This document shows, in pieces, positions 31,392 to 57,116 of a stretch of 64,000 nt of DNA. Numbering within the stretch: the first letter of the stretch is position 1; each line of letters starts with the position of its first letter. The notes below the pieces were generated by a model that was given only the letters and a program-made list of their open reading frames with translations, was not told the origin of the DNA and did no database searches. Source of the DNA: Bilabrum cf. latius (Eukaryota); the NCBI GenBank assembly GCA_965178125.1, contig OZ237756.1, forward strand, positions 310,001 through 374,000. Reading direction: 5' to 3'. Both the position numbers and the translations under genes were made by a program.

Positions 31392-32451
31392 GGGGGGACA
31401 ACAGGTGGTGGTAGGTACACCAAGCGTTTAGGACGAGGGCTACGCTACGCTCGCCCCTCCTTTAAAGGCATATTTAGCAACTCAAGTGTTTCCCCTATAA
31501 ACCTAAATGATTTCACAGGGGGTTCCCCAAGAACCCCTATAGAACCCCTCTATGTACCCATTTTCAGATATAAAATTTACTCCTACGAAGTAGGGGTAAA
31601 TTGAAGAATTCTAATATTTAACCCCCTTATAAACTCTAACAGCAAAGACAGAGATGTTTTAGTAAAGTAGGAAAAAATGAAGAAATTAACCAAGTGTCCA
31701 AAATATCTCTGTGTTTGCTGTAGGAACGGAAGGATGAATTCCCAAGAGACCAAGAGACCAACCGAGGATTTCCCCAAGAGAACAAGGTATTTTATCAAGA
31801 GACCGAGGTATGTTCCCAAGCGACAAACCGATAAACCGACCGATGAACCGACCGATGAACCGACCAAGGATTTCCCAAGGATTTCCCAAGGATTTCCCAA
31901 GGATTTCCCAAGGATTTCCCAAGGATTTCCCAAGCGACTAAATTGTTCTCCGAAGCAACCAAACCGATTACCCAAGAGATGATACATTATAAGGAAAACG
32001 AAAACGTATTTTAAGTCCCTTTGGAAAAGTCCCCCAAGATGCTCGGGCTTTGCCCTCCGCTCTTTTGATATCTTTTTCAAAGATTAAAATTGAGAGATTT
32101 TACAGGTCAATTTTAAGAGACTTAGAAAGAATAAATATATTTTCCAATTAAAATTAAATGTTGTAATTCCTATGATGCCACCATAAAAATTAAAAGGAAA
32201 ACGAAAACGTATTTTAAGTCCCTTTCGAAAAGTCCCCAAAAAACTTGTCAATTTTACAGGTCAATTATAAGAGACTTAGAAAAAATAAATTAAGTTCCCA
32301 AGATGCTCGGGCTTTGCCCTCCGCTCTTTTGATATCTTTTTCAAAGATTAAAATTAAATGTTGTAATTCCTATGATGCCACCATAAAAATTAAAAGGAAA
32401 ATAAAAAACAAATTATAATTGTTTTCCAATTAAAAACACAAAAATTGATTG
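31392..32451 (+). repeat. left terminal inverted repeat (about 1060 bp)
   Basis: Reverse complement of 56293-57116. It contains 6 copies of GGATTTCCCAA (31868-31933) and an internally duplicated block. Confidence 0.93.
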
Positions 32452-32466
32452 CCTAAAGTGGAAATG

Positions 32467-32505
32467 TCGTACCTTAAGCATAACTTACGTAGTCTATAGT
32501 ACAAC
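32467..32505 (+). promoter_or_regulatory. conserved upstream motif TCGTACCTTAAG-N9-CGTA(G/T)TCTATA (copy 1 of 3)
   Basis: The same motif occurs at 33885 and 35599, each directly upstream of an ATG. Confidence 0.75.
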
Positions 32506-32512
32506 CACATAA

Positions 32513-32752
32513 ATGGCAAAATCACAAAAGGAACTCGAGAATTACATCTTGGCGACCAAAGAATGTCTTAAATCAGTCCCGTTTATTACAACACGAGAAG
32601 CATACGATATGGCCAAAAAGTACCTTGAATTTACAAAGACTATTATTTGGATTAATTATGATGATGACGATGACCTGCTTGCTGACTTTGAGGAAGCTAA
32701 AGATTTAAGTCAAATTGTAGTTGAATGGCACGAAAGTACCAAAACCAAATGA
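32513..32752 (+). CDS. virophage hypothetical protein, 79 aa
   Basis: ATG-to-TGA ORF preceded by the conserved promoter motif. Confidence 0.7.
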   Translation: MAKSQKELENYILATKECLKSVPFITTREAYDMAKKYLEFTKTIIWINYDDDDDLLADFEEAKDLSQIVVEWHESTKTK

Positions 32753-32817
32753 TTTTTTCCCAAGAATTATTTTCCCTACTTTACAAAAGTAAGGAGAATG
32801 ATACAACTATATAGCAA

Positions 32818-33873
32818 ATGAGTAGCGCCTTTGAAAGAATATTACAATCCCTAAACATTTATCCCAACAGTCGTATTGTAAATTTAATGAAACGACCAAA
32901 ACGACCCAAAGGAGTAAATCGACCCCACGTAAATGTACCAGAACCTCACCAAGTGGTACAAATGGATTTATTATCATTACCCCACGACAATAATTATAAA
33001 TACGCATTAACTGCTATTGATTTACATACAAAGTAGGCCGATGCTGAACCGCTCAAAACCAAGCGTTAGAACGAAGTATTAAAGGCATCAAAAAAGATTT
33101 TCAATCGTGGTAATGTCCAGAAACCGCAGCACCGTTTGGAAATAGATAATGGAAAAGAATTTAACGCTTTACAAAGATATTTAGAAGAGACCGATGTATT
33201 TGTACGAAGAAATAAAGCAGGTCGCCACCGACAACAGGCATTAGTGGAAAACCTAAATAAAACGTTGGGAAAAGCCATATTTACCCTATAGAACGTTAAT
33301 GAGTTAAATACAGGTAATGAAAGCGTAGAATGGGTGGATATGCTTCCAAACATCATTGAAAACTATAATGAATATCAACTAGAAAAGTATATAGAAGAAC
33401 CACCTTTACCCCCAGAACACTTCGACTTTACGTAGTGTAAAGGAGACGCTTGTAATATATTGGAAGAGGGTACAAGAGTTCGTATACCATTAGAAGAACC
33501 CAGAAAGGCTACAAATTTACAGCAAAAATTATCCGGAAATTTTCGTGCTTCAGATTTACGCTATAATCCAGAAATCAAAACGATAACTAAAGTATTATTA
33601 AGACCGAGACAACCACCCTTATATGTTGTGGATTAGGATGATTTAGTGGCTTATCCAAAAGAGGAATTACAGATTATCGACTTTGATAATGAGGACAATA
33701 ACCGAGATGCTCAGACAATCTTTCTCCCAAAAAAAATAAAATCCGAGAACGAAACAGAATATCAAATAGAATGGAAAGATTTTCCAGAACCAGAACATTG
33801 GACGTGGGAACCAAAGAATAAAATCCAAGAAATTGCTCCTAATTTAATTTTGGAGTGGGATATAGAAAATTGA
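32818..33873 (+). CDS. retroviral-type (rve) integrase with C-terminal chromodomain, 351 aa
   Basis: Read through 5 TAGs. DDE motifs QMDLL, IDNGKEF and QQALVENLN, plus EWVDMLP. Chromo motif YQIEWKDFPEPEHWTWEP. Confidence 0.92.
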
Positions 33874-33930
33874 GATGCCCCGTATCGTACCTTAAGGATT
33901 ATTTTCGTATTCTATAGTACAACAACAAAA

Positions 33931-35592
33931 ATGTCATTCACTCTGCCGACTAAAGCGTATTCGTCAAAAAGCCTTATGGACCTATGTAATGCCGGAAAAC
34001 AAGAGGAATGTATTCAATACCTTAAACAATACTTCTACCGCACCCACGAACAAGGTGGCGGGGTGTATTTTCTAATAGCATCTGAATTAAATCGGAATAA
34101 CATAAGTGATGACGAACCCCAGAAACCAGTCTGGTAGTTCCTTACGAATAAAAATATTACTGAAAATTACCTGATTGGGGGACACTGTATTTACGCGATT
34201 GTGGGCAACAAAAGAGTAAAGACTTGGTCAGCACGAGACTGGTTCTTAAATGAGAATACCGACGTATTTACGATTGTAAGAAAATTCAATTCACCTACCG
34301 TTGATTACGACAATCAAACAATTAACGTTATGGGTTCACCTATACTTACACGGGAAAACTGTGGAAACATAGAGGATTTAACCGAAGACGCAAAAGCAGG
34401 CGCGACTATGATTTACGAACATATCCAGAAGGTGTGGACTTCAGAAGACAAAGAATAGTGTGATTTTGTGATGAAGTGGTTGGCTCACGTTATTGTGGGC
34501 GGAAAGAAGTTGGGTACAGCACTATATTTGAAATCTCCACAAGGAACTGGTAAATCGATGATTATTACCTTCCTTATGAGAAAACTACTCGGATATACCC
34601 TCACACTATAGACGCTTACACACAAGATGCTTCAACCCGACGCCTTCAACTCAATTCTGGACGGGAAACTATTAGTCAATTTTAATGAAATTCCAAAAGC
34701 CTCGCCAACTATTTGGGACGCCATGTAGGCAACACTAAGAAATCTTATTACGGAAAAACACTTTTCCTGTAATGAGAAGTTTGTCAAATCCGAAAGTCGT
34801 CCGAATACATTCAATTTAATTATTGATACGAATGATAGTCCAATCAAAATCACCGAGGAAATCCGTAGATATTGTGTTTTGGATGTGAATACATCTAAGA
34901 AAGGAGACAAAGAATACTTTACAACACTAAAACGTTTTACAGAAAATCCAGAAGTGGCTAAGGCATTTTATATGTTATTGGTTGAAATCTATGATACATC
35001 ACCAGACTTTACAGGACAATTCGCACCAAAATCAAAGAATTTTTACAAAGGAATTCTTGATGGCGCACATCCGGTTTTAAAAATTCTAAAAGAAGAGTGG
35101 CTGGACGAAGGCAGAGATTTTAAAATGACAGTCTTGGAATTCCGCAATTATCTAAAGCAGGAACTGAACGGTAGAGTGAAGAACCTTGGTACACCTATGA
35201 TTAAAACACTATTGTCAGAGGTAGGTGTTCATTCAACGATGAACAAATAGAGAAAACAAGAATTTAATGTGAAACACGCAGACTTACTAAAAGGCTTCCA
35301 ATCTAAATTTTAGGCACTTCGTCATTCTGCTGAGATGGAAAAAGCAAAATCCGAGGTAGATGTTCTTCGAGAGTAGATTAGAGAACTACAGAAACAAGTC
35401 GCATAGCAGTAGGAAACGATTGAATAGTTGGAATTAGAAAAGGAGATTACACCGACGGAACAAGTCCATAAGAAAATCCAGAAACAGCTGAGTGTTGAGA
35501 ATAGCATCGCTATTCAAAAATGGATAAAAGAGAACCCACCAAAGAACAAAAAAGGAAAACTTTCCAAATTCCTCTGTAAAATTGAGAAGTGA
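33931..35592 (+). CDS. D5-like superfamily 3 helicase, 553 aa
   Basis: One frame through TAGs to TGA 35590. Walker A LYLKSPQGTGKS, FNSILDGKLLVNFNE, NLIIDTN, RRYCVLD and a C-terminal coiled coil. Confidence 0.85.
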
Positions 35593-35649: not shown

Positions 35650-37491
35650 ATGCCCGAAATCGATTTTACGGAACCCCAAAGAACCAAATTGCGTCTTAAT
35701 GGGAAACCAATATGGAGTATGCGATTTGAGAGCGAGGACCTTATCACCGTAAAAAATGTCTTGGAATTTATTCGTGATTACGACGATGGTGGTGAAAATC
35801 CGTTTGATGACTTTAAATTTAAGGTGAATATCAATTACCAAGATACAGGTTGGCGAACACGAAGCACTTGGATTACTACAGATGATTTAGAAAATCAAGA
35901 TAGTTTATGGGCGGGCTACGAAGACGACGATGACGACGAATATAGAAAATTGAATTCTTTTGAACTACTGCTTATTAGAAAGCCAGAACCAGAAGGCGGT
36001 GCTGACGAACATAACGATTGTTTATATAACGCTATAAAACAGGCTTTTCCTTTTTCAGTTGGTCGTAAGGTAAATGTAAAGAGCGCAAAAGGCAAATGGA
36101 AAACTACTATTAAAAGATTGTCGAAGTCCGACCTCAAAGAACTCTTGAAAATTGGACGTGATGACCCCGTTGATTACAGAAGAATACCAGAGATAGAAGA
36201 CGAACTTCAAGTACGCATTCATGTTGTAGGCGACTTTGAATACACATCTGGAAAAACTCATTTTGACCGTCTTCTAACTGTTTCATTAACAAATGGGCAT
36301 TACAAGTATGTTCCCCCCATTAGTTAGAAAGAATTATTTACACCGCCGTCTAAAGAACCGTGTACGCTAATTACCCGCTTGTATCAATCCGAGAATTCTT
36401 ATTTACTATTTGATGGAGACCGTGAGTATCAATCAGAAGGCATTACATCAGTTTCCAAGGATAAATTCATCTTTGAAGTCAAGTCCAAGGAAGAACTAAG
36501 AACAAAACACGAAGAACGGATGAAAAATGTAAGGGCATTAGCGAAGGAGACGGGTGGATATATGGATTTATCACGATTTATGTTTAGAACATCCCTATTT
36601 GTAAAGTCGTATTTCAGTAAGTTTTCCAAACTTTACCCTGCCGACCCGATTGACCAAGTTGAAGCACTATGGATTTCTAAAGCCTCGGGTGGTGGATTGA
36701 ATTGGGCAAACAAGAATACTACATTAAAAAACGCATACCAGTACGATATTAACTCATTTTATCCAAGTATTATGAAGGGTACATTTACATTTCCGGTTAG
36801 AAGGGGTAAGTTCGTAAAATTTGAAGTACCTTCAAGTGGTTTCTATCCGTACGGCATTTTTAGGGTACATATTGAAAATATCAATTCTAAATTGGTACAA
36901 AAAAGAAAAAACAATTATTATACCCAATATGACATTAACCGAGCGATTGAGACGGGCGCTTAGGTGTCTCTGATTGAAGACGGTGAAGCCAACGCTTTAC
37001 TTTACGATGAGACAACAAGGGTGAAGGCAAATGGACTGTTCAAAACGATGATTGAGCGATTGTACGGTTATAAAAAATAGGGATTGAAGTGTGCGAAGGA
37101 GATACTAAATAATATTTGGGGTTCTCTATGTTAGAAAAACACAATCACAAAAACACTCCGAGATGGTGATTGTATGAATTTTAGACAATTAAAGAACGCG
37201 TATCCTAAAGCATCTGGACGACTTGTATCGGGTATACTATATGACGAAGAGTACGATTACAAAACAGCCTACGCAAGAATGGGCCCCTTTCTGACTGGAC
37301 TTGGACGAAGTAAATTGTCCAAAATGATTGAGCCATATCTTGAAAACATTCACTATGTCAACACGGATGGTTTCATTAGTGAGAAAGAATTACCTCTAAA
37401 GTTATCAACGAACCTTGGGGGTATGAAGTTGGAGCAATCAGGTGAATGTCAAATTATTCACAGTAAGAAGAAAATTTTTAGAAAAGATTGA
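35650..37491 (+). CDS. protein-primed family B DNA polymerase with N-terminal vOTU-like domain, 613 aa
   Basis: Motifs YQYDINSFYP, KRILNNIWG and YVNTDG. The N-terminal region has GGADEHNDCLYNAI...LTNGHY. The three track ORFs are joined by TAG. Confidence 0.9.
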
Positions 37492-37492
37492 A

Positions 37493-37806: not shown

Positions 37807-38448
37807 TCATACATTCTACCAAGCAATTTTTAGAGCATCACTTTTCCCATATCCTCTACCTCTTAACTACTGAGCGATTTTCATTGCTAGTTTTGCTTTT
37901 GGGTTTTTCCGACGGCGCCTCCCTTTTCCAGTTTTTTGTGGTTTAAAACTCTACTTCGCTCTTTCGTTCGAGCCCCAATCAGGCACTTCACCACCCATTC
38001 GCATTACTCTAGCCTATCTCGATGATAATAGTTCTTTCTAACTATTTCCCTTCTCTCTAGCATCAAAAAATTCACGCATAGTATCTCTCCGTTCTGACGC
38101 ATATTTTCTATGAATTGCCTAATTAAAATCATCAAGTGTTGTGTCGTGTTGCTCGTGTAGTGATGGTGATAAGAATTTTAGTATACCCACGTCATAATCA
38201 CCATCACTATCTTTGTCAATTCCTAGCGTATCAAATTCTTGTTCGGTCTTTTCGGCGAGCATTTCCATCATTTCCCTTTCCTAAGGGTTTACATATACAC
38301 GATTAGCGTACTTTTCCCCTATACTCTAGTGCTTCCTCAATCCTTTCAAAATTGCTAGTGCTTGTCTAGCGTCTTTCCCCAAACTCTGATGTGGCTAACT
38401 AGCCAGTAAATGTAGTTGTTCTTCGGTATAATCATCAACACCCGCCAT
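37807..38448 (-). CDS. virophage hypothetical (candidate core) protein, 213 aa
   Basis: MAGVDDYTEEQ... open only with TAG=Gln. Basic C-terminus KNPKAKLAMKIAQQLRGRGYGKSDALKIAW; TATAGTAAATG start context. Confidence 0.75.
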
Positions 38449-38468: not shown

Positions 38469-39725
38469 TTAATCATACGCAAACATTTTCCAAGCCTACT
38501 TAAGTGCTGTCTTCTTGGATATTCCTTTTCCTCTTAAAATGGACGCCATTTTCATAACTCTTGAACGTTTTGTTTCACACTGACATTGACCTCCAAATAT
38601 TTCCAGATACATACCCGATACTGGGTCATTCGTATGCGAATGGATTTCTTTCATAATTGGTCTTCCAACTGTTTTAGTTGCTAAATCCCAACCTTCCTTA
38701 AAATCTTGTCCAAAATCCCTTTCTGTGTTCTACTTATGCTTTTCCTAATTTTTTCTTAAAGCGTTTCTTACATCTTCCGGTAAATCATCTAAACCTCTCC
38801 CGAACCATTTGGAAAAATACCCAGCCACATCAGTAGCAGCATTAGCCACTCTCTTAGTAAATCCCGATACGTTCTTAGCAATACTCTCTACATCCTACAT
38901 AATAAATTGGTTTAAGGGTGGTGTCAAAAACCCATTTGTGCGTAGAACATCCTAAATGAACTTTTGACAATTCAACGAGAAAGCACGATACTAATAAAAA
39001 TTGTATTCTCCTATTTTCTGTAAAGTGGTTTCATATAATTCCCTTACTGTTTTCTAAGGTTTTCCATTAATATTTACTTCCATAGTTTGTGTTTTCTTGT
39101 TGGTGGAAAATCTTGAGGACAAATTAACCCTCTCATTCTTCTCAAGATAAATCTTTTTTCCACCTCCAAGGTTCAACTCTAAGGCTAAGTGAAAAAAATC
39201 ATTATATCCGTGTTTATTTTTTAACTTTTTCATTTTTCCAAGGGTAATCCAGTTAAGCAACCGATTAATCGCGCCACTAATGGGGGTTCTAATTACTTTC
39301 ATAGCTATAATTGTTCTATCCCCGTATTGCTGTAGTGTTCTCTGGACTTCGTTTGAATTCCCATACACTACTCCACCCTTAAGCTGTTGCGCCAGCTAAC
39401 TGCGCCGAGAGGGGGTGCTTCGCAAACCATCTTTTAAATACTAATGAAGTGTGTTGGATTGTGTGGATTTCTTCTAGGATTTCTTTTTTGGTTTTCCTTT
39501 TGTTCCCACACCATCTTTAAGCTGTTGCGCCAGCTAACTGCGCCGAGAGGGGGTGCTTCGCACACCATCTTCAAACTTAATTGCTTTTTCAAGGGCTTCT
39601 TTAGAATAAGGATGTTCACTTTTCCATGTCCTTGTTGTTTTACTCTTTGGTTCTTTGACACTAATGTACGTCTTAACAAAACCAGAATTCATTTTTCCGC
39701 CACTAAGTGTATAAAAACTATCCAT
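38469..39725 (-). CDS. virophage protein with permuted papain-like (His...Cys) domain, 418 aa
   Basis: One frame from ATG 39725 to TAA 38469. FFHLAL, LEKNE and YQYRAFSLNCQKF resemble PPPDE/LRAT-type H..NC motifs. Internal duplicated peptide DG(V/L)RSTPSRRSQLAQQLK. Confidence 0.7.
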
Positions 39726-39750: not shown

Positions 39751-40368
39751 TCATAGACGACTTCCAAGACCGAAGGTTTTCCGGACGAATTCCTCCAGTT
39801 GCTAAAAGGATGAATAGACACAGTACTAACTCTAATGTAATCCAGCGATTAAATTCGTTCTTGAGCGTTCTACAGACAATAAGTCCCCCGATTTTTTCCC
39901 TTCACGGATTTCCTCAAAAAGACTGTGAGAAGGCACACACACAAAAATTGAACTTTCCTTAAATAAATCTTTCGCTAATTCCAACGAACCAACCATAACA
40001 ATTAAACGCCTGGATTTCTTTGTGAGCCAATCCGCTTTAATTTTTTCATACACTAATCTTGACTAAGAGTAATAAAAGAGACGGTGGGTGCTTTCATCAC
40101 CATCAATTAGCATTTTCTCCATTTTCTATTTTTCCTACCCTGAAATCTAACCATTTACGCATTCATCTAAGTCAATGACCAAAGTGTCTTTATCAACACT
40201 TTCTATAGAGCGACACAAAGTAGTTTTCCCAGAGCCTTTTGGAACAACCACGCAGGATTTCTGTTTCTAAGTTCCGTCTTTCGTCCACCAAGAATATAGA
40301 CACCGACTACCAGAATACATTAAAGGAGCCAAAGTCCCAGCAACCATTACAGCAGATGATACTGACAT
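39751..40368 (-). CDS. small P-loop NTPase/kinase-like protein, 205 aa
   Basis: VVVPKGSGKTTLCR followed by LVIDLDE; hydrophobic N-terminus; TGA stop. Confidence 0.75.
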
Positions 40369-46305: not shown

Positions 46306-46348
46306 AGGACGTCCCTGCGCCCGTCCCGCGCCCTCTCCCCCCCACGAG

Positions 46349-48228: not shown

Positions 48229-51200
48229 CGCGCCCGCTCCACCGTCTCGCCCCAGCGGAGGTAATGGCGAGGCGAGAAGTTCCGAGAGAGAGCGTCCGCC
48301 ACGAAGTTGGCCTTGCTGCTCACGTGCTGCGAGAAGAGCTGGAAGTCATGGCGTGTCACGGTAGTGAACAACGGCCCCAACAGTCTGTTGAGGCACAGGC
48401 GGCGTGCAGAGCCCTTGCGAAGAGAAGTACACACAGGCAGATTGTCCCCGTACACGGTCACGTTCCTGCCCGCGAGCTCCGGTGCCCACCGCTGCACGAG
48501 GAGCACCACGGCCGCCAACTCGGCTTGCGGCATCTGACTGGGGCCCACAGTGCGTGGCCAGAATCCCTGGACGAGGCGCCGGCCGCGATGACTATCGCCC
48601 GGAGTGCCGTACAGCTGCAGTGTCCCCCCGAACCCTTCCTTGCTGGCGTCCACGTACATCACTGCCCGAGGTCCCCGATGTGGGGACGTGGGGAACCGGC
48701 GTGAGCGGTTGGCCTGCACGCTGGCACGCAGGGTCCTGAGTGTGTCGAGGATCGGCCGGTCCAGCTGGTGAGGGCCCCCCCGCAGCGGCATGCGGTGCTG
48801 GGCACACTGCAGGAGCCCGAGCTGGGGCTTCAGGCACACCAATGCCCCCGCTGCAAACCCCAACTCTCCGATGACGGACTTGAACTCCAACGACGTGGAC
48901 ACCGCCCCGGCCTCGATGATGGATGTCAAGCGCTTCACCAGAGCCTCCTACTTGGCCTGCGGCAGGGCGATCCGCAGTGCGGCGAGGTCCAGCTCGTACC
49001 CGAGGTAGGTGAGCACGGAGCGGGGATGTTCCCCACGCGCCTTGGACCGTGAGATGGGGAAGCCCAGGTACTCAGCCTCGGACATGAGCTGAGCCGTCAT
49101 CCATGGGGCCCGGGGTGCGGCAGCGAGAAGCAGCTGGTCGTCGCTGAAGACGGTGGTTGCACACGGCGCGCGCGGGAGGGCGAAGCTGCAACGCTCACGG
49201 AATCTGCGGTTGAAGGCGGTGCTGGTTAGACAGGCCCACCCCGGCGAGGACGCCGAGCCCATGCTGAGGACAGCGTAGAGAGCTGCCCGGTCCCCCGTCT
49301 TGGACCACATGTGACACGCGTCCGCCAGCCGAAGCTTGAGCGAGAAGAACCACTTGGAGAAGTCAATGGCGGCACCATGCATCGCCACCCCTGCTGGAAG
49401 CTAGCGGTGGAACTTCACGGCCTCCTTCATGACCACGGTGATGTCGTCGAGCAAGCACGGCGTGTACTGCCGGTAGTCCACAAAGCCATTCACGCCCTTC
49501 CCCGTGGTGGAGCTCTCGCGGGCGGACGCGTCCACGATGGCGCGATACTGCCCTGCGGCCTTCTTGGCGATGTAGCTGGTGAACGAGATGCGAGATGGCG
49601 GCACCTCGTGCTCGGCCAGTGGCACGATCCAGCCGGCACGGACAGCGGCACCGTGCGCCAGCTCAGCATGAGTGCGCGTGGCAGCGTCTGAGTAGCGTGT
49701 CTGCTCCACCGCCGCGTCCCGTGGACTGCCCGCGCCGGGGTCAGTGCAGAGTGGGAAGCCGTAGCGGATGCCGGCCACGGCCGCCTCATACAGAGACAGC
49801 GCCTGCCAAGCCGCCGGTCCCCGAGGTTCCGTCGGGGGACAGCGCACGCCGAAGAAGGACTCCAACCGGCGCAGACGAGCGCCCGTGCAGCGGTGGCCCC
49901 GGACAGAGCCGCGGGCGATGGCCACGTCAGCCATCGGGTCGAGGAGCAGTCGGTGTCTGGCGAACTCAGCAGCCGGAGCTGAGGACACGCGGCGCAGCGG
50001 CGCGGAGGTGAAGTCGGCCAAGCGGGTGGAGGGGATGTCCTCGGCCGTCCTGGCTGTGGGAAGCGGCGGCTCCGCAGCAGCGGCGGCAGCCATGCGGTGC
50101 AGCACTCGAGGCAGCGTGGAGCGTTGCCACGTTGCCCGGTCGCGACGTGCACGGTCCTGCACAGCAGGGTCCAGCAGAGAGGGCACCGGCTTCAAGCGGC
50201 GGGAGGAGCTAGCGATCGTCGCGGAGAGGCCGGCTGCCGTCAGGTGTGCCTGGGATGAGGCAGGACCCGTCCTGGTGATGGCTAAGTCCGAGGCGAGATC
50301 CGACCGTGCTGTCTGCCCGACCGCGCGTCCCTGCCAGGGCGCCACGCGAGCCCCACCAGCATGGCTGACACCGCCCGCCATGATCTCCTGCCTGCTCTCG
50401 ACTCCGCCACCACGGCTGACACCGTCCTCCACGATCTCCTGCCTGCTCTCGACTCCACCACGGCTGACACCGCCCTCCACGATCTCCTGCCTGCTCTCGA
50501 CTCCTCCACCACGGCTGACCCCGCTCTCCACGATCTCCTGCCTGCTCTCGACTCCTCCACCACGGCTGACCCCGCTCTCCACGATCTCCTGCCTGCTCTC
50601 GACTCCTCCACCACGGCTGACACCGCCCTCCACGATCTCCTGCCTGCTCTCGACTCCTCCACCACGGCTGACACCGTCCTCCACGATCTCCTGCCTGCTC
50701 TCGACACCTCCACCACGGCTGACACCGTCCTCCACGATCTCCTGCCTGCTCTCGACTCCTCCACCACGGCTGACACCGCTCGCCACGATCGCCTGCCTGC
50801 TCTCGACTCCTCCACCACGGCTGACCCCGCCCTCCACGATCTCCTGCCTGCTCTCGACTCCTCCACCACGGCTGACACCGTCCTCCACGATCCCCTGCCT
50901 GCTCTCGACTCCTCCACCACGGCTGACACCGTCCTGCACGATCTCCTGCCTGCTCTCGACTCCTCCACCACGGCTGACACCGCCCTCCACGATCGCCGGC
51001 CTGCTCGCGACTCCTCCACCACGGCTGACACCGTCCTCCACGATCGCCTGCCTGCTCTCGACGCCGCCAGTGCCGCTGATATGGTCCGCCCCGACCGCAT
51101 CACGTGCACCCCTGCGGTTCGCCGCGGAGTTGGTGGCGGCAAGTGCACGATGGCCGGCCCGGTGGGCCCGTGACCATAACGTCGGCAATTTCCAAGATGA

Positions 51201-52094
51201 CCAGAAGCGCCCCCTGGCTTGGGGCGCCGTTGCATTGCGTGGCGGTCTGTACGACCGCCCCCGCACCTCAGCCCCTCCGTGCCGAGGTCTACAGATCTGC
51301 CCGGTGGGCAGACTGGGTCCCTCCTTCCCTCCCGCCCCATCCTCCGTTGGGGCACGAGTGAGCTTCGCCTCTCCAGTGAGGCTAGCTGCCGCAAATTGCA
51401 ACGAGGCACCCGAGGGCACCTGCTGCGCGGGAGTCGATCCTGTCACTCCCCAAGCCGCGTCCTGCAGTGCAGCATCCTCCCCGTGCTGCCCGCCGAGCCC
51501 CCAGCCCCCCGCTGTGGCCCTCCCATTCCACGTGACCGGTGCTGCCGGCCACCACGTCGATCCAAATGTCAAACTGCCCCCCCAGCCCCAGGTCTGTCCC
51601 CACGGACCCTGCCCAGGCCATCCCCCCCATCGCCAGCACCCACCGGCGCCATCCCCCGCAGGGGCTGCACCCCCCCACGGTGCACCCCACGGAGATGGCC
51701 AGCCGCGACCCCACCGGCGCGCGGCTGCACCCAGGACGGGGAGACGGCCACATGGCCGCCACCCCGCCGCCCGTGCATCCCGCGTGCGCCCTGCCACCCG
51801 CTCCACCGGCGCCCCGTCAGCGCACCCCATCATCTCGCCGTCCGCCGCCCCCCCGGCGGCCCTCCGCACCTCGCTGCCCGCCCGCACCACCACCGCTGCC
51901 GCCGGTCCCGCCGCCACCCCGGCGTCCATCCCCCCCGCCCCTGCCGCCCGCGACGCCCGCGCCCTCACCGCCACCTCCCCGGCCGCCGCCGCCACCCGGC
52001 GGATGCCAGCGCCCGTCCTACGCCGGCATCGCCTCTGGTGGCGACGGCGGAGGCCGTGCCGAGCGTGAACACCCAGCGCGGCCCCCTTGGCTAG
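48066..52094 (-). CDS. reverse transcriptase + RNase H (Ngaro ORF2) with long N-terminal repeat region
   Basis: Frame open through TAGs at 49401 and 48948. RT motifs YRAIVDAS, IDFSKWF, LSMGSASSP, FSDD and YLGYELD; RNase H motifs YVDAS, QAELAA, GDN and NFVADALSR. Confidence 0.88.
50361..51069 (-). repeat. 51-bp coding tandem repeat, about 14 copies, in Ngaro ORF2
   Basis: Encodes GGGVESRQEIVEDGVSR variants; one unit is 3 nt shorter, which keeps the frame. Confidence 0.95.
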
Positions 52095-54077
52095 TCAGTC
52101 ACCGAAGATGGACCGCCAGTCGCGATCCACATTGGGGGTGCCGTCGGCGCGGCGCCGCGACGTGTCCGGTTCCGCATCGATGTCGGCCACTCGCTGCATG
52201 CACTCGACCAGCAGTCCAGGGACACCGTTCACGGTGTCGAAGGGGGCCAGGAGCCGGGTCAGATCGGCGTGAGGCAGCGGAGAGGTGGCCGGGTCACGCC
52301 ACCAGCGGCTGCCCGCTGCCCACGCCGCGCAGCTGCGGAGGCGATCACCCGCGCGCAGCACGTTCTAGCCGGGGGTGAGCTCGGAGCCCGCCGCGGTGTC
52401 ATACACCCAGCACATCACCTGCTCCGGGACCGAGGTGGCCTGCCGGAGGGGAGTGGTGGTCCCCACCGTCGCGACCATCCTTGCCATGGAGCTCGAGCGG
52501 GCCCACAGGTCACCCACCGTGCCCAGCTCCGGCGTGGCCAGGTCACGGCTGCGAGGGGCGCCTGGCTGCGAGGCGTGCCCGATGAGCGTGCGCCGCATGG
52601 CCAGGGCTTGGCACGACCGATGCACCCAGATGCCCTGCACGACTGCTGCCAGCTTGCCCGAGCCGCTGCCTGCCCCCGCCCGGAGCAGCCCGATGGTGGC
52701 GTACGGTTCACGCCGCTGCAGGGCGGACCCCAGGGCTGTCACCGCGGTGACGAAGGAGGCCAGGGCTGCCTTGCCCGCAGATGGGGCCTTCAGGGCGCGC
52801 TCGCCGGCCTTGCCACCACACACCGCGTCCACCATGGCAGCCAGGACGTCAGCGAACTAGGCAGGGCAGCGCAGGGGCTCCAGCGTGAGCAGCCTGAGGT
52901 CGTGCTCCAGAGCCGCACGAAGGAAAGTGCGGACCCCCTCGCGCACGAGGCGGCTGTCTGGGGGCGGCGCGGCCCCCGTGGCGTCGATCAGTGCGGCCGT
53001 CGTGTGAGCCAGCGAGGTGCCTGTGGGGGAGCTAGAGGGTTCAGGGACGGAGCCAGCCGTGACCGTGTACGTGGGGGGACAAGCGTCGGTTGCAACCGTC
53101 TCACCGGGGGGTTGGGCCGCCGTGGGCCGGGGGAACGCCGCCGCCTCGCCCATAGCGACGAGGAGCGGTAAGACGGAGCCGCCCTCCAGCGGGCGCTTGC
53201 GGTACAGGTCAGTGGCCTGCTGAGCCAGCTCCTGGATGGCGTCGCGTGGGGCCATAGCTGCCAGCATGTGGAACAGACCGAGCGGGGCTGCGGGGCCGGC
53301 GGAGTACTTCAAGCCGCGCAGAATGACCTCAGCCCAGAGTGCCGGGACTCCGGTCTACAGGCGAGTCTGGAGCCGGCGGGCCGCCTCGGCGAACTCGGCA
53401 CGATGGACGTCAGGTAGCGGCGGCAGGGGCCCACTCAGGGCGGGCAGCGAGCCCACATCGATGACCAGCAGGAAATCACCCATCAGCGCCGCGGCGTTGG
53501 CCAGCACGGAACGAGCGGGCCCGCGCCCAAGTGCATGCCCCGCCGACTTGCCCAGAGCCACAGCCTCATCGTCATCCGCTTGGCCCAGCGGGATCCCATC
53601 CAAAGAGCCGGCGTCCGCGTCCGGCACGGCGTCCGCCTTGGGCAGCTGAATGTCCTCACAGATAGAGTCGAGGCGCGTGGACAGCAGCGGAAAATTTGCA
53701 TGCGTCACGGTCAGGAATGAAGTAACGTAGTCCCGAATCTCCGTCTGCAGGGCTTCGAATTCCGCGGACCCCAGGCTTTCGGGATCGATGGAGGCCAGCG
53801 CGATGGTCATGTCGCCAAGTCGGCGCGTCGCCCAGCGGTCATCCCAGAGGCAACGAGGCTCCGCGTCCCCAGACGATTTACTCGAGCGAGCAGCAGTCGA
53901 ATCAGCTGGAGCAGCTGCGTCTGGCACTGCGGTTTGCAGCCACTTCACTGTCAACGGACCGGACAAGTCTTGCAACGGGGCCAGGATTAGCCGAAATGCC
54001 TCACCAGCCCGCCCTGTGCGGAGTGCAACCTGTACAGGGGCAACATATTCAGCCATTCCCGTAGCTGCAGAAGACAT
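52095..54077 (-). CDS. Ngaro ORF1 (gag-position protein), 660 aa
   Basis: Four track ORFs in one frame joined by TAG; ATG directly after repeat A1; TGA at 52095. Confidence 0.75.
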
Positions 54078-54083
54078 AGCTGC

Positions 54084-54713
54084 GGACAGTCCGCCCCGAA
54101 TCGACTGGTTCTCCTCAGTCGCGTCTCGCGCATGCTATACCACACTCGCCACAAATGTACACGCTACCCCAATCCTTGCATCGTCTGCGCCTCCAGGCTC
54201 GCTCCGATGCCTCCCCTTCTAGTCCTGCCCCATTCTGATCTGCTGTCTCCCTACGCACCCGTACGTCTCAGCCTTCGCCAGAAATCCTACTGCCTTGTGG
54301 TCTGGCCCCACTCGGCTGCCTCCGCTGCCCCTCCCTCCCCATGGGCCTCCACGCTCCCGAGCCCTACTGGCTTGCTCGGGCCTGTCCGTGCCCCTTCGTC
54401 GTCCCCGCCACGCGTCTGGTTAACCGCGCTCGGGGCATCCCGATCCTCCCCTTTCCTCCGTTCATCTTGGAATCCCCCTCTCCGTCGCCTCCCCCGGTGC
54501 CACCCGACCCCTTGGTGGGCCGCCGCCCGTCCACCCTGTCACCTCCGCCAAGCTCCCCCGTCTGCTCCTGTCCCCCTCTCACCTGGCCCCCTCGCTGTCA
54601 CCTCCCGCCGTTGTTGTCCTCCACCTGCACGTGCGCTGCTGCTGTACCCTCCCCGTCGGAGCCCCCATCGCTGTCTCACAGCCCTCAATCCCAATGTCTG
54701 ATGACACAGATAA
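54084..54713. repeat. Ngaro repeat A1 (630 bp)
   Basis: Direct repeat of 46349-46978; both give identical 189-aa translations in the ORF track. Confidence 0.95.
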
Positions 54714-54994
54714 GTAATCTCTTTATGTTTCTTTTCCTATGCTTTTTCATACAAGTATTTGATGTCTTCGTCTAGGGGTTCGACCTGTTTGATTAAGTGT
54801 CGTGCTAATAAATCCATTTTCCTCTGCGGAAATCGTTTCCCTGTAAGTGATGATACTTGAAAATCCTAAAATGACATACTATCATCTCCAAATTGGTTGT
54901 CTGTGTTTTCCGCCGTGTATAAAATACGTTTTCCGTGAGTGTCATATGCGATGGGTGTTGATTTTGTAGTTTCCTTCCAAGAAAAATGAGCCAT
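54714..54994 (-). CDS. packaging ATPase, 5' part
   Basis: MAHFSWKETTKSTPIAY...KHKEIT joins in frame to LK[Q]GEFQSLP at 46154 when the Ngaro is removed (903 nt, 300 aa). Confidence 0.88.
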
Positions 54995-55183
54995 TTTAGT
55001 GTATTTACTATATGTTTTTATTTTTTCTAAAGTGTTTTGTCTTTTTGTTGAAAACTTATTTTGAATGATTGTCTTTTATGCTATCCACAAATTCCAAAAC
55101 GGATTTTGTAGAAATACTTCTACGCTTAAATAGTGGTTAAGAGAATTCATCTCCCCCAATATATGTTTCTATAATAAATATAT

Positions 55184-55720
55184 ATGGATTATGCTCTTAG
55201 CGATAGTGATATTCGTGTTCTCCTCCAAACTCCACCAAATATTAAGGGGTTTCTTCCTACGTCGGTAAACATCGTTCCATATACAGAATTAGGATAGTAC
55301 AATAGTATTGATGGATTATTTAGTCGTTGTAATTGTTGTATCATTCTATACCAAGAAGAAATAAATTCTGGACACTGGGTGTGCTTATTTAAGCGTAATA
55401 AAACAATATACTTCTTTGACAGTTATGGAATTCGTCCTGATAGGCAATAGCACACAATGAGTGAAAGCGTGCGGAAACGTTTTTATGAAGACCCTGAGTT
55501 AATATATTTAATGTATCATTCTCCGTATAAGATTGACTATAACCCATATTAGTTTTAGGCGGATGGAATGGATATAGCAACCTGCGGGAGACATTGTATA
55601 GTTCGTCTTTGGAATAGGGGAAAAAACGCTGATTAGTATAAAAAGTGGGTGGATAAGGTTTGTAAGAAACATACATTAAATCCTGATGAATTAGTGTATT
55701 TATTGACGTGTCATTTATGA
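55184..55720 (+). CDS. virophage maturation cysteine protease (adenain/Ulp1-like), 178 aa
   Basis: SGHWV (His), YFFDSYG (Asp) and Y[Q]F[Q]ADGMDIATCGRHC (oxyanion Gln, Cys). Confidence 0.92.
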
Positions 55721-55999
55721 ACTCCAAAGGTAAAAATGTGAGAAGAACTTTGGGGTTCTTGGTTTTACTTCGATACCGTGTCGTTTGAAGTATCTAAATT
55801 GGCGGTCCGTATCTAAATGATTTAAATGGCTGTAATACCCTATTCTATCGTAAAATTGCTAATACCGCCTATCACCAAACGATGTAATATATTCATCATT
55901 TTCGTCAAAAACATCATACTTCTTATTCTTGCGTCTTGAGGGTGCTTTAAATAGAAAATTCTCAACAACCTTTTCAAAATCGTAGGTATGTAGCTTCAT
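55715..55999 (-). CDS. small viral protein resembling DUF5754-type family, 94 aa
   Basis: KKYDV...SFGDRRY[Q]QFYD...HLDTDRQFRYFKRH...FFSHFYLW pattern, recalled from large DNA virus and virophage proteins. Confidence 0.65.
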
Positions 56000-56030
56000 A
56001 AGTACTTTATAGTATAGTCTTCTACTTATA

Positions 56031-56144
56031 TCAAAGCCCGAGCTTCTTGTATTCCTTTAGTTTTTCGTGTAATTTTTTCCAAATACGTGGATTAATTTGC
56101 TTGACAATATGCTCTATCATCAACTCCTTTAAAAATGGGTTCAT
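56031..56144 (-). CDS. 37-aa ORF
   Basis: MNPFLKELMIEHIVKQINPRIWKKLHEKLKEYKKLGL, preceded by the viral CTATAGTAAATG motif. Confidence 0.5.
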   Translation of the reverse strand: MNPFLKELMIEHIVKQINPRIWKKLHEKLKEYKKLGL

Positions 56145-56292
56145 TTACTATAGTGATATAGAATGGTCTTAATTATCATCTCTTGGGAAATCCAATCTTT
56201 GAAAAAGATATCAAAAGAGCGGAGGGCAAAGCCCGAGCATCTTGGAAAATTAATTTTAATATTTCTTTGTATCCTATATTGTCAAAATTTTT

Positions 56293-57116
56293 CAATCAAT
56301 TTTTGTGTTTTTAATTGGAAAACAATTATAATTTGTTTTTTATTTTCCTTTTAATTTTTATGGTGGCATCATAGGAATTACAACATTTAATTTTAATCTT
56401 TGAAAAAGATATCAAAAGAGCGGAGGGCAAAGCCCGAGCATCTTGGGAACTTAATTTATTTTTTCTAAGTCTCTTATAATTGACCTGTAAAATCTCTCAA
56501 TTTTTGGGGGACTTTTCCAAAGGGACTTAAAATACGTTTTCGTTTTCCTTATAATGTATCATCTCTTGGGTAATCGGTTTGGTTGCTTCGGAGAACAATT
56601 TAGTCGCTTGGGAAATCCTTGGGAAATCCTTGGGAAATCCTTGGTCGGTTCATCGGTCGGTTCATCGGTCGGTTTATCGGTTTGTCGCTTGGGAACATAC
56701 CTCGGTCTCTTGATAAAATACCTTGTTCTCTTGGGGAAATCCTCGGTTGGTCTCTTGGTCTCTTGGGAATTCATCCTTCCGTTCCTACAGCAAACACAGA
56801 GATATTTTGGACACTTGGTTAATTTCTTCATTTTTTCCTACTTTACTAAAACATCTCTGTCTTTGCTGTTAGAGTTTATAAGGGGGTTAAATATTAGAAT
56901 TCTTCAATTTACCCCTACTTCGTAGGAGTAAATTTTATATCTGAAAATGGGTACATAGAGGGGTTCTATAGGGGTTCTTGGGGAACCCCCTGTGAAATCA
57001 TTTAGGTTTATAGGGGAAACACTTGAGTTGCTAAATATGCCTTTAAAGGAGGGGCGAGCGTAGCGTAGCCCTCGTCCTAAACGCTTGGTGTACCTACCAC
57101 CACCTGTTGTCCCCCC
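56293..57116 (-). repeat. right terminal inverted repeat (about 824 bp)
   Basis: Reverse complement of the left TIR, with 3 rather than 6 copies of the 11-mer and without the extra ~200-bp block. Confidence 0.93.

What the first reader, a model, noticed from the sequence alone, without database searches (positions are those of the whole stretch)
31392..57116. Endogenous virophage written in a reassigned genetic code (TAG=Gln) matching its host
Seen: almost every viral gene (integrase, helicase, PolB, MCP, penton, ATPase, protease) is an intact ORF only if TAG is read through. No in-frame TAA/TGA was met in the segments translated, despite AT-richness. TAG falls at the oxyanion-hole Gln position of the protease (55556-55558) and in Gln-type coiled coil (VA**ETIE* near 35400). 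Established: virophages rely on host translation. Inference: this lineage is code-locked to TAG=Gln hosts and would be missed or called a pseudogene by standard-code annotation. I am not aware of a described recoded virophage but cannot check the literature.
Basis: partly seen in the sequence, partly recalled or inferred. Interest (0 to 1): 0.95.

Follow-up and report, generated by a model that had tools for sequence, protein, structure and literature searches.

The report
Integrated virophage that reads TAG as glutamine
A small virus that parasitises giant viruses sits inside a protist chromosome, and its genes make sense only if the stop codon TAG is read as glutamine, as the host's own genes also seem to require; related TAG-recoded virophages occur in environmental DNA, so standard annotation probably misses this lineage.

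Summary
Window 31391-57117 is a 25.7-kb endogenous virophage. It has about 1-kb terminal inverted repeats (outer 511 nt identical) and a GAAA target-site duplication. It encodes a Sputnik-type major capsid protein, penton, packaging ATPase, cysteine protease, rve-chromo integrase, helicase and PolB.

In 4,373 codons the reading frame holds 102 TAG, 0 TAA and 0 TGA. The other two frames hold 99/144 TAA and 82/168 TGA. Genes end in TGA (9) or TAA (3).

Against a syntenic metagenome relative, 22 of 68 TAG sites that face sense codons align to Gln, and Gln is the best-scoring residue. Canonical Gln codons are conserved at a similar rate (35%). Two near-identical metagenome variants differ by TAG/CAG at one codon.

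The relatives (7 metagenome contigs) also carry in-frame TAG, so this is a recoded lineage rather than decay. Flanking host genes (30 and 22 in-frame TAG) and a retrotransposon also need TAG read as sense.

New here: an 8,559-bp Ngaro-like retrotransposon splits the ATPase gene in this copy. Public run contigs hold the uninterrupted form at much higher depth.

Precedent exists: polinton-type elements of Streblomastix strix use code 6 (Bellas 2023). I rate this a new variant of a known kind.

The parts
31387..31390 (.). Left copy of the target-site duplication GAAA
   Evidence: GAAA directly flanks both inverted-repeat ends.
31391..32451 (.). Left terminal inverted repeat. The outer 511 nt are 100% identical to the right arm. 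The inner part is 97-100% identical with internal 11-nt and about 200-nt sub-repeats.
   Evidence: I1-I12, D4, D9-D12; first mismatch at offset 511.
32513..32752 (+). Small 79-codon ORF preceded by the 52-nt upstream motif. It overlaps the integrase start in another frame.
   Evidence: (D5).
32725..33873 (+). rve integrase with C-terminal chromodomain, 382 aa, 6 in-frame TAG
   Evidence: PF00665 E 1.7e-9; PF00385 E 6.7e-6.
33931..35592 (+). DUF5906/VapE-type helicase (primase-helicase class), 553 aa, 10 TAG
   Evidence: 56% identical to the L004 ORF.
35650..37491 (+). Family-B DNA polymerase (organellar/viral type), 613 aa, 4 TAG
   Evidence: PF03175 at 24.7 bits, just below the 25.8 cut-off. 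61% identical to a 626-codon ORF of L004.
37807..38448 (-). orf213, unknown function, 9 TAG
   Evidence: The start abuts the TATAGTAAA motif.
38469..39725 (-). orf418, unknown function, 11 TAG. Conserved in L002-L004 (43% identity).
39751..40368 (-). orf240 (likely start at Met36), P-loop protein, conserved in relatives (54% identity)
40424..42190 (-). Major capsid protein, 588 aa, 14 TAG
   Evidence: PF21915, PF22031. Sputnik V20 3j26 E 3.3e-30; mavirus 6g45 E 2.1e-8..
42296..43405 (-). Penton (minor capsid) protein. The likely start is the ATG at 43405.
   Evidence: PF21507 E 1.4e-10. (54% identical to L004). (motif at 43406-43414).
43462..43953 (-). orf163, unknown function. The only listed viral ORF without TAG.
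44019..45200 (-). orf393, unknown function, 13 TAG. Conserved in L003/L004 (38% identity).
45264..45503 (+). 79-codon ORF with 5 TAG. Its start abuts the motif at 45255-45263.
45533..46154 (-). C-terminal part of the packaging ATPase (Walker A APSGAGKST)
46155..54713 (-). Ngaro-like tyrosine-recombinase retrotransposon, 8,559 bp, 62-71% GC, inserted in the ATPase gene. ORFs: gag-like 52095-54311, RT/RNase H 48066-51995, tyrosine recombinase 47065-48228. Split direct repeats: A (630 nt) at 54084-54713 = 46349-46978; B (87 nt) at 46979-47065 = 46155-46241.
   Evidence: contigs join 46154 to 54714.
54714..54994 (-). N-terminal part of the packaging ATPase
   Evidence: joined with 45533-46154 it gives a 300-codon open frame, 61% identical over its full length to the L004 ATPase.
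55184..55720 (+). CE-clan (adenain/Ulp1-like) cysteine protease, 178 aa, 5 TAG. His64, Asp79, TAG125 and Cys134 are invariant in the 3-sequence alignment.
55715..55999 (-). 94-codon ORF, 1 TAG. The motif lies 9 nt upstream.
56194..57117 (.). Right terminal inverted repeat
57118..57121 (.). Right copy of the target-site duplication GAAA
23934..31390 (-). Host gene interrupted by the insertion: DEAH-type helicase plus IBR/RBR domains, 22 in-frame TAG. The upstream part continues at 57122-57776.
   Evidence: removing the element and one GAAA gives a 2,735-codon open frame.

Best explanation
This is a virophage of the Sputnik/mavirus kind, integrated by its own rve integrase into the coding region of a host gene in a GC-rich eukaryote. 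TAG is a sense codon in that host's nuclear genes, while TAA and TGA remain stops (the pattern of NCBI table 15). In the viral genes TAG encodes glutamine and makes up about 40% of Gln codons. The proteins can therefore be made only by a translation system that reads TAG as Gln, which this host appears to supply. The element belongs to a multi-copy family in the organism. It also belongs to a wider recoded virophage lineage seen in environmental metagenomes. The copy in this window was later hit by a Ngaro-like retrotransposon that splits its packaging ATPase gene. Other copies lack that insertion and keep an intact ATPase frame.

Shown: virophage gene content; TAG in frame while TAA and TGA are not; Gln as the best reading in the viral genes; TAG as sense in host and retrotransposon ORFs; recoded relatives; the retrotransposon-free form in other assemblies.

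Inferred: Gln in host genes; translation by a host suppressor tRNA-Gln(CUA) and an altered release factor; dependence on a giant virus that is also TAG-compatible; activity of the intact copies.
For: 1. Virophage identity:
- MCP matches PF21915 and PF22031; penton matches PF21507; rve, chromodomain and DUF5906 are also found.
- The MCP matches Sputnik V20 (E 3.3e-30) and the mavirus MCP (E 2.1e-8).
- All six matches to the protease model at E <= 0.001 are CE-clan cysteine proteases.
- There are 1-kb inverted repeats with 511 identical outer bases and a GAAA duplication.

2. TAG is sense and TAA/TGA are stops:
- The reading frame holds 102 TAG, 0 TAA and 0 TGA in 4,373 codons. The other frames hold 99-144 TAA and 82-168 TGA.
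- Terminators are TGA 9 and TAA 3.

3. TAG means Gln:
- Against the syntenic relative L004, 68 of our TAG sites face sense codons: Gln 22, Lys 7, Glu 7, Ser 7, Arg 4, others 21.
- The BLOSUM62 sum is Gln 118, Glu 66, Lys 46.
- Canonical CAA/CAG codons align to Gln at 35%; TAG aligns to Gln (counting TAG) at 42%.
- Against the standard-code virophage L001, 7 of 34 sites are Gln, and Gln scores best (21 vs 10).
- L003 and L005 differ at 7 of 363 MCP codons. The only difference involving TAG is TAG/CAG at codon 252.
- Protease TAG125 aligns to an invariant Gln.

4. It is a lineage, not decay:
- All 7 metagenome contigs returned (MCP 55-62% identical) hold in-frame TAG in their viral genes and no in-frame TAA or TGA in the MCP stretch; the 157-codon MCP piece of L008 itself has no TAG.
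- L004 carries 9 syntenic genes, all with TAG.
- Of the 30 variant positions between copies that were printed (208 reported), 27 lie in ORFs: 18 synonymous and 9 not.

5. Host:
- ORFs of 2,783 and 2,479 codons hold 30 and 22 TAG. Helicase and IBR domains lie at opposite ends of one frame.
- 7 of 7 host ORFs end in TGA, and the three retrotransposon ORFs also hold TAG.

6. Other copies:
- Contigs of 3 runs from 2 studies join 46154 directly to 54714.
- In run X2 that contig has depth 404.6, against about 80-90 for the retrotransposon interior and 21.6 for the host flank.
- The joined frame is open for 300 codons.
Against: - No peptide, tRNA or release-factor evidence is available. ARAGORN finds no tRNA gene in the window, and no genome is held for it.
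- The reverse tally is not decisive. The 30 TAG sites of L004 that face our sense codons align to Lys 8 and Gln 7, with BLOSUM sums Lys 38 vs Gln 35.
- Protease TAG123 aligns to Lys in both relatives.
- Two host TAGs inside conserved DEAH-helicase motifs align to Arg and Asp in solved helicases. Gln in host genes is therefore not shown directly.
- The 13 of 13 Gln in the 90%-identical protein P0001 may only reflect how that database translated TAG.
- No run is on record as RNA.
- Contig depths are not copy numbers, by the tool's own caveat.
- This copy's ATPase gene is broken, so this copy alone could probably not package DNA.
Confidence: 0.9

Rival explanations
1. The element is a decayed provirus. 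The TAGs would be nonsense mutations, for example from C-to-T hypermutation of CAG or G-to-A of TGG, and the genes would be pseudogenes.
For: Endogenous viral genes with many stops are often reported (PMC10120064, passages). One gene here, the ATPase, really is disrupted.
Against: - Only TAG occurs in frame (102), never TAA or TGA, although 106 CAA codons could mutate to TAA by the same change.
- TAG aligns to Gln as often as canonical Gln codons do, and Trp is never aligned to Gln or TAG.
- Relatives at 55-62% identity have their own TAG sites.
- The inverted repeats are identical over 511 nt.
- Differences between copies are mostly synonymous (18 of 27).
Confidence: 0.02
2. TAG is a sense codon but encodes another residue (Lys or Glu), or it is ambiguous or context-dependent.
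For: In the reverse tally, L004 TAG sites face Lys 8 times and Gln 7 times. Protease TAG123 faces Lys in two relatives. Host helicase TAGs face Arg and Asp.
Against: - The forward tally (n=68) gives Gln 22, against 7 each for Lys, Glu and Ser. BLOSUM sums are 118 vs 66 and 46.
- Gln is also best against the standard-code virophage.
- The one TAG change between near-identical variants is TAG/CAG.
- Lys, Glu and Arg are the usual replacements of Gln (established substitution patterns).
- TAG is never the terminator of any of the 12 viral, 7 host or 3 retrotransposon ORFs.
Confidence: 0.05
3. The host uses the standard code. TAG in the virophage would be suppressed only during giant-virus infection, by a virus-supplied suppressor tRNA, as in late-gene recoding of some phages.
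For: A virophage clade carrying a suppressor-type tRNA (ochre) has been reported (PMC6905037, passage). Giant-virus genomes that annotate better under alternative codes have also been reported (PMC13524828, passages).
Against: Host genes of about 60% GC and a 62-71% GC retrotransposon, which do not depend on infection, also need TAG read through: 30, 22, 3, 3, 2 and 2 TAG in host ORFs and 1, 2 and 5 in retrotransposon ORFs.
Confidence: 0.02
4. The virophage is not integrated. On this reading, a free or contaminating virophage genome was joined to host DNA by misassembly.
For: Virophage contigs have much higher depth than the host flank. The X2 contig that reaches the right junction has only 29 bases on the virophage side, under the tool's 31-base rule.
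Against: - A 4-nt duplication flanks perfect inverted repeats.
- Removing the element and one GAAA fuses two host ORFs into one 2,735-codon frame.
- A host-type GC-rich retrotransposon lies inside the element.
- Loose ends at 57117 with other flanking sequence suggest further insertion sites.
Confidence: 0.03

Closest known systems
Endogenous polinton-type viral elements of Streblomastix strix that use the host's code 6 (Bellas et al. 2023, PMC10120064; passages read)
   Same: An integrated small dsDNA virus of the polinton/virophage supergroup whose genes are written in the host's reassigned stop-codon code. That paper took this as a sign of long association.
   Different: Those elements fall in a 'Metamonada' MCP group with parabasalid polinton-like MCPs and use TAA and TAG = Gln. 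Here the MCP is of Sputnik virophage type, only TAG is reassigned, and TAA is still a terminator. The paper's supplementary tables could not be opened, so further recoded hosts listed there cannot be excluded.
EMALEs (endogenous mavirus-like elements) with Ngaro retrotransposon insertions in Cafeteria burkhardae (Hackl et al. 2021, PMC8547959; abstract start and one passage seen)
   Same: An AT-rich virophage with long inverted repeats and an rve integrase in a GC-rich protist genome. It is multi-copy and is itself invaded by a GC-rich tyrosine-recombinase retrotransposon.
   Different: That paper's main text holds no mention of 'genetic code', UAG, TAG, amber or glutamine. Here every gene but one holds TAG. 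The MCP is closer to Sputnik V20 than to mavirus. The retrotransposon RT region found no database relative.
Sputnik virophage (capsid protein V20, PDB 3j26) and mavirus (MCP, PDB 6g45)
   Same: Double jelly-roll MCP, penton, CE-clan protease and packaging ATPase. With mavirus it also shares the rve integrase and PolB.
   Different: It uses a recoded genetic code, is integrated in a host gene, and carries both a helicase and a PolB.
Nuclear codes in which UAG and UAA differ in meaning (Panek et al. 2017, PMC5304391; title and start of abstract seen; that one lineage reads UAG as Gln with UAA as stop is my recollection)
   Same: The same pattern: TAG is sense and TAA and TGA remain stops.
   Different: That work concerns host genes only, with no virus. 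Whether this host belongs to such a lineage is unknown, because host proteins had no close relatives.
Stop-codon-recoded bacteriophages such as Crassvirales (TAG=Q gene calling is mentioned in PMC11502894, passage; the rest is recalled)
   Same: Viral genes with in-frame TAG read as Gln that standard gene callers miss.
   Different: In those phages the code differs from the host's and is thought to be switched on by the phage. Here the host's own genes share the code.

Membership tests
Virophage (Sputnik/mavirus kind) | Virophage-type double jelly-roll major capsid protein | tested here: met
   PF21915 E 1.9e-22 and PF22031 E 2.2e-27, both above cut-off. Sputnik V20 3j26 E 3.3e-30 and mavirus 6g45 E 2.1e-8.
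Virophage (Sputnik/mavirus kind) | Penton (minor capsid) protein | tested here: met
   PF21507 Sputnik V18/19, 41 bits vs cut-off 27.
Virophage (Sputnik/mavirus kind) | Packaging ATPase | tested here: inconclusive
   A P-loop is present, but Pfam gives only generic AAA hits below cut-offs. It is 38% identical to the ATPase-position ORF of the standard-code virophage contig L001 and 61% identical to that of L004. The gene is split in this copy.
Virophage (Sputnik/mavirus kind) | Adenain-like (CE-clan) cysteine protease | tested here: met
   There is no Pfam or PDB sequence hit. The AlphaFold model (pLDDT 68) matches only CE-clan proteases at E <= 1e-3 (OtDUB, Cdu1, ASFV pS273R, Ulp1) at low TM of 0.30-0.39. 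His, Asp, Gln(TAG) and Cys are invariant in the alignment.
Virophage (Sputnik/mavirus kind) | Replication depends on a co-infecting giant virus | not testable with these tools
   No giant-virus sequence is in the window. A conserved motif abutting gene starts may be a promoter, but its reader is unknown.
Integrated mavirus-like element / polinton-like integration | rve integrase, terminal inverted repeats and a short target-site duplication | tested here: met
   PF00665 at 38.3 bits. Inverted repeats of about 1 kb. GAAA on both sides.
Integrated mavirus-like element / polinton-like integration | Protein-primed family-B DNA polymerase | tested here: inconclusive
   PF03175 at 24.7 bits, under the 25.8 cut-off. 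The full-length homologue in L004 is 61% identical.
Genetic code with TAG = Gln and TAA, TGA = stop (pattern of NCBI table 15) | TAG occurs in frame in conserved genes; TAA and TGA do not and serve as terminators | tested here: met
   102 TAG, 0 TAA and 0 TGA in frame over 4,373 codons. Terminators are 9 TGA and 3 TAA. Host ORFs: 7 of 7 end in TGA.
Genetic code with TAG = Gln and TAA, TGA = stop (pattern of NCBI table 15) | TAG columns align to Gln in homologues | tested here: met
   Viral genes: 22 of 68 vs L004 and 7 of 34 vs L001, with Gln the best BLOSUM fit. The reverse tally ties Lys and Gln. One TAG/CAG exchange is seen between near-identical variants. Host genes: not shown.
Genetic code with TAG = Gln and TAA, TGA = stop (pattern of NCBI table 15) | Cognate tRNA-Gln(CUA) and a release factor that no longer reads UAG | not testable with these tools
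   There is no tRNA in the window and no genome is held.
Ngaro-type tyrosine-recombinase retrotransposon (DIRS order) | Reverse transcriptase/RNase H plus tyrosine recombinase instead of a DDE integrase | tested here: met
   PF00589 at 29.7 bits vs cut-off 27.1. RVT_1 and RT_RNaseH hits are weak, below their cut-offs.
Ngaro-type tyrosine-recombinase retrotransposon (DIRS order) | Split direct repeats in the order A1-ORFs-B1-A2-B2 (the definition is recalled, not from a call) | tested here: met
   A: 54084-54713 = 46349-46978 (630 nt, identical). B: 46979-47065 = 46155-46241 (87 nt, identical). On the minus strand the order is A1, ORFs, B1, A2, B2.

The most novel reading that the evidence does not exclude
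A whole host, giant-virus and virophage system may run on a UAG=Gln code. The virophage family appears active rather than fossil. Supporting points are intact retrotransposon-free copies at roughly 20-fold the contig depth of the host flank, mostly synonymous differences between copies, identical terminal repeats, and free-living recoded relatives in environmental metagenomes. If so, an undiscovered giant virus that tolerates or uses TAG=Gln must exist. A stop-codon reassignment would then not have isolated its bearer from the virophage/giant-virus world. Instead, it would have produced a code-locked viral lineage that standard pipelines do not see.
Probability: 0.5. Interest if true: 0.8.

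Novelty: new variant of a known kind. Interest (0 to 1): 0.68.

Why it matters
Three points follow.

1. It bears on whether a changed genetic code works as a barrier against viruses and gene transfer. Here a virophage has followed its host into a rare UAG-only reassignment. About 40% of its Gln codons are now TAG, so it can no longer be expressed in standard-code cells.

2. Virophages need a giant virus. The finding therefore predicts a giant virus compatible with this code.

3. Related recoded contigs exist in metagenomes. Surveys of virophage diversity that call genes with the standard code, or back-translate Gln only to CAA/CAG, will break or miss this lineage.

The Ngaro insertion repeats, in an unrelated code context, the virophage-retrotransposon association described in Cafeteria.

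Tried and rejected
- Whole genome of the window: none is held.
- Viral-contig scans. A single-protein scan with the MCP found no relative. The 9-sequence alignment was too diverse to scan with. The 5-sequence alignment found one standard-code virophage contig. These scans back-translate Gln to standard codons, so recoded contigs can be missed.
- PDB sequence searches with the protease, alone and as a 3-sequence profile, gave only spurious WD40/Apaf-1 matches. The oxyanion-hole assignment of TAG125 therefore rests on alignment to relatives, the residue order His-Asp-Gln-Cys, and a fold match, not on residue-level superposition.
- Host code tests:
  - Alignments of the host fucosidase to solved structures did not cover its two TAG sites.
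  - Host helicase relatives in the 5.8-billion-protein set are at most 24-25% identical over most of the region; local matches reach 46% over 16% of it. The host lineage could not be named and gave no useful TAG columns.
- The retrotransposon RT region found no relative at E <= 0.001.
- No tRNA gene is in the window.
- Sequencing runs: no RNA holder is listed. Run X7, another sample labelled with the same organism as X1, held next to none of the sampled words and only short low-likeness pieces. This is no evidence of absence.
- An empty-site allele could not be looked for, because the element is longer than the 20-kb limit of read laying.
- The L006 comparisons were misregistered (offset not found) and are disregarded.
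- Literature searches for a recoded virophage found none. The hits concerned phages and host code prediction only.
- Supplementary files of the papers were not available.

Full report
**What is there**

The window is about 58-70% GC, except for 32-46 kb and 54.7-57 kb, which are 34-46% GC. Under the bacterial/standard stops the AT-rich part holds only short ORFs. With TAG read through it resolves into 12 long ORFs.

Pfam identifies these proteins:
- An rve integrase with chromodomain.
- A DUF5906/VapE-type helicase.
- A family-B polymerase, 24.7 bits against a cut-off of 25.8.
- A major capsid protein with both Sputnik MCP domains (E 1.9e-22 and 2.2e-27).
- A Sputnik V18/19-type penton (E 1.4e-10).
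- A P-loop ATPase.

The MCP matches the solved Sputnik V20 capsid protein (E 3.3e-30) better than the mavirus MCP (E 2.1e-8).

The 178-residue protein at 55184-55720 has no Pfam or PDB sequence match. A structure model built on three sequences (pLDDT 68) matches only CE-clan cysteine proteases at E <= 0.001. These are OtDUB, Cdu1, ASFV pS273R and Ulp1, with adenain, poxvirus I7L and SENPs just below. The TM-scores are low, 0.30-0.39.

**Boundaries and integration**

The element is bounded by inverted repeats at 31391-32451 and 56194-57117. Their outer 511 nt are identical. GAAA lies on both sides.

Removing the element and one GAAA fuses the 290-codon ORF at the right flank with the 2,479-codon helicase/IBR ORF at the left flank. 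The result is one 2,735-codon open frame. The virophage therefore sits inside a host coding region. A frame match has a one-in-three chance by itself.

**Is the TAG pattern real and non-random?**

Yes. The 12 ORFs as listed hold 105 in-frame TAG and no internal TAA or TGA. They end in TGA (9) or TAA (3). With starts trimmed to the likely ATGs, frame 1 has 102 TAG, 0 TAA and 0 TGA in 4,373 codons. Frames 2 and 3 have 99 and 144 TAA and 82 and 168 TGA. TAG supplies 105 putative Gln codons, against 106 CAA and 46 CAG. Because CAA is so common and TAA never appears in frame, a CpA-to-TpA type of hypermutation cannot explain the pattern.

**What does TAG encode?**

A scan of JGI metagenome contigs with a 5-sequence MCP alignment returned seven contigs whose MCP is 55-62% identical. 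In the MCP stretches of six of them there are 2-6 in-frame TAG. In the 157-codon piece of L008 there are none, though its ORFs hold TAG elsewhere. None of the seven has in-frame TAA or TGA in that stretch.

The longest contig, L004 (13.8 kb), is syntenic for nine genes: helicase, PolB, ATPase, protease, penton, MCP and three unknowns. Every one contains TAG.

Forward tally, over 3,410 aligned codon pairs between the window and L004:
- 79 of our TAG sites are aligned; 11 face TAG and 68 face sense codons.
- The 68 are Gln 22, Lys 7, Glu 7, Ser 7, Arg 4, Thr 3, Ala 3, Met 3, Asp 3 and nine others.
- The BLOSUM62 sum is highest for Gln (118), then Glu (66) and Lys (46).
- Our canonical CAA/CAG codons align to Gln in 35% of cases; TAG aligns to Gln or TAG in 42%.
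- Our Glu, Lys, Trp, Tyr and Leu codons align to Gln in 0-8% of cases.

Against the one standard-code virophage contig found in IMG/VR (L001, 23-38% identity), 7 of 34 TAG sites face Gln, and Gln again scores best (21 vs 10 for Glu).

Two near-identical metagenome variants (L003 and L005) differ at 7 of 363 MCP codons. The only difference involving TAG is TAG versus CAG.

The reverse tally is weaker. The 30 TAG sites of L004 that face our sense codons are Lys 8, Gln 7, Thr 3, Ser 3, His 3 and others. Lys (38) and Gln (35) are nearly tied.

The 90%-identical database protein P0001 has Gln at 13 of 13 aligned TAG positions. I cannot see its DNA, and the database may simply have translated TAG as Gln, so I give it no weight.

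The TAG at 55556-55558 is protease residue 125. It aligns to Gln in both L004 and the standard-code L001, and is one of 36 invariant columns along with His64, Asp79 and Cys134. That order (His, Asp, Gln, Cys) is the one I recall for CE-clan proteases, where the Gln forms the oxyanion hole. No residue-level superposition was possible. The neighbouring TAG123 aligns to Lys in both relatives. The coiled-coil string is VAXQXETIEX, not VA**ETIE*.

**The host**

Flanking GC-rich ORFs also need TAG read through:
- 13094-21445: 2,783 codons, 30 TAG, WW domain.
- 23934-31373: 2,479 codons, 22 TAG. P-loop and Helicase_C domains are near the N-terminus and IBR domains near the C-terminus, in the same frame.
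- 6867-12464: 3 TAG, with Ank, TPR and DnaJ domains.
- 4-2964: 3 TAG, with LRR and ephrin-receptor-like domains.
- A Ctr copper transporter and a GH29 fucosidase with 2 TAG each.

All seven host ORFs examined end in TGA. So TAG is a sense codon in the nuclear genes.

That it is Gln there is inferred. Two TAGs in conserved DEAH motifs face Arg (TQPRR) and Asp in solved helicases, in a protein that is divergent at neighbouring motif positions too. Host proteins had no relatives closer than 24-25% identity over most of the searched region. I could not name the host lineage and did not try to trace records.

**The retrotransposon**

The 62-71% GC block inside the element is a tyrosine-recombinase retrotransposon. 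Its parts are:
- A tyrosine recombinase ORF (PF00589, above cut-off).
- An RT/RNase H ORF (weak hits).
- A gag-like ORF.
- Identical split direct repeats ordered A1-ORFs-B1-A2-B2: A is 630 nt and B is 87 nt.

Its ORFs hold 1, 2 and 5 TAG. It interrupts the packaging ATPase gene.

Contigs of three public runs from two studies join 46154 directly to 54714, skipping 8,559 bases. The joined frame is open for 300 codons. It aligns over its full length, at 61% identity, to the intact ATPase of L004.

In run X2 the bridging contig has depth 404.6. Other virophage contigs are at about 380-650, the retrotransposon interior at about 78-115, and the host flank at 21.6. The tool warns that such depths are not copy numbers. 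Still, many copies, most without the insertion, is the simplest reading.

Loose ends at 57117 with different flanking letters suggest other insertion sites. Of the 30 variant positions printed (208 reported), 27 fall in ORFs and 18 of those are synonymous under TAG=Gln. That fits divergence under selection rather than decay.

**Literature**

- Bellas et al. 2023 (PMC10120064, passages) reported that endogenous viral elements of Streblomastix strix use that host's code (TAA and TAG = Gln). They read this as long-term association. Those MCPs group with parabasalid polinton-like elements.
- Paez-Espino et al. 2019 (PMC6905037, passage) noted an ochre-suppressor-type tRNA in one virophage clade and suggested stop-codon reassignment in its hosts.
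- A 2026 giant-virus catalogue (PMC13524828, passages) reports genomes that annotate better under alternative codes.
- Hackl et al. 2021 (PMC8547959) described Ngaro insertions in endogenous virophages of Cafeteria burkhardae. Its main text does not contain 'genetic code', UAG, TAG, amber or glutamine.
- The Halocafeteria preprint (10.64898/2026.07.28.741278; abstract and passages) mentions neither a code change nor Ngaro in that host.
- Seven full-text searches combining virophage with code or stop-codon terms found no description of a recoded virophage. Supplementary files could not be read.

**Verdict**

The element is a virophage written in a TAG=Gln code that its host shares. It belongs to a multi-copy family and to a wider recoded environmental lineage. 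This copy carries a retrotransposon in its ATPase gene.

The principle has a precedent in a different virus group and a different code, so I rate it a new variant of a known kind. It is of good but not extreme interest.

Still open are direct evidence of translation, the amino acid in host genes, the host's identity and the giant-virus partner.

Noticed in passing
window 37233-56152 (13 distinct sites), e.g. 38448-38456, 39725-39733, 43406-43414, 45200-45208, 45255-45263, 55004-55012, 56144-56152: The motif TATA[C/G]TA[A/T]A occurs 19 times (both strands counted), all inside the virophage, against 0.3 expected from whole-window shuffles. Most sites abut or lie within about 10 nt of a start codon, and they predicted three extra small ORFs. 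It is probably the element's promoter with almost no leader. The shuffles mix GC-rich and AT-rich DNA, so the expectation is too low for the AT-rich part.
   Followed up: partly
window 32467-32518, 33885-33936, 35599-35650: A conserved 52-nt block begins with TCGTACCTTAAG (3 matches, 0.04 expected). It lies immediately upstream of the three plus-strand replication-module genes only: the small ORF before the integrase, the helicase and PolB. This may be a second promoter class, distinct from that of the capsid-module genes.
   Followed up: partly
window 32513-32752 and 32725-33873: A 79-codon ORF carrying the upstream block overlaps the integrase start in another frame. It could be a separate small gene, or the integrase N-terminus cut off by a frameshift in this copy. 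No relative with an integrase was available to decide.
   Followed up: no
window 37807-38448, 38469-39725, 40424-42190, 44019-45200, 45264-45503 (C-terminal ends): Several otherwise unrelated viral proteins (orf213, orf418, MCP, orf393 and the 79-aa ORF) end in similar basic, Gly/Lys-rich tails followed by a short amphipathic stretch. This could be a shared packaging or protease-processing signal.
   Followed up: no
window 46242-46303: A run of about 62 A (plus strand) lies between repeats A2 and B2 of the retrotransposon. Contigs of run X1 appear cut there (46233-46314).
   Followed up: no
window 50300-51211: Thirteen tandem copies of a 51-nt unit lie inside the retrotransposon RT ORF's N-terminal region. 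They encode repeats of GVSRGGGVESRQEIVE.
   Followed up: no
window 13994-14380 approx. (host ORF 13094-21445, residues 301-430): Seven tandem copies of a 21-residue unit in a host protein each carry TAG at the same position. The codon was therefore already in place when the repeat expanded.
   Followed up: no
window 58648-59805 and 60128-61726: A BNR/sialidase-like gene and a GH29 alpha-L-fucosidase lie next to each other in the host flank. The sialidase-like ORF has no TAG.
   Followed up: no
L004 (metagenome contig) 61-13411: The recoded environmental relative has the same gene set in a different order (helicase, PolB, two unknowns, ATPase, protease, penton, MCP, two unknowns). No integrase lies on the part held.
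   Followed up: partly
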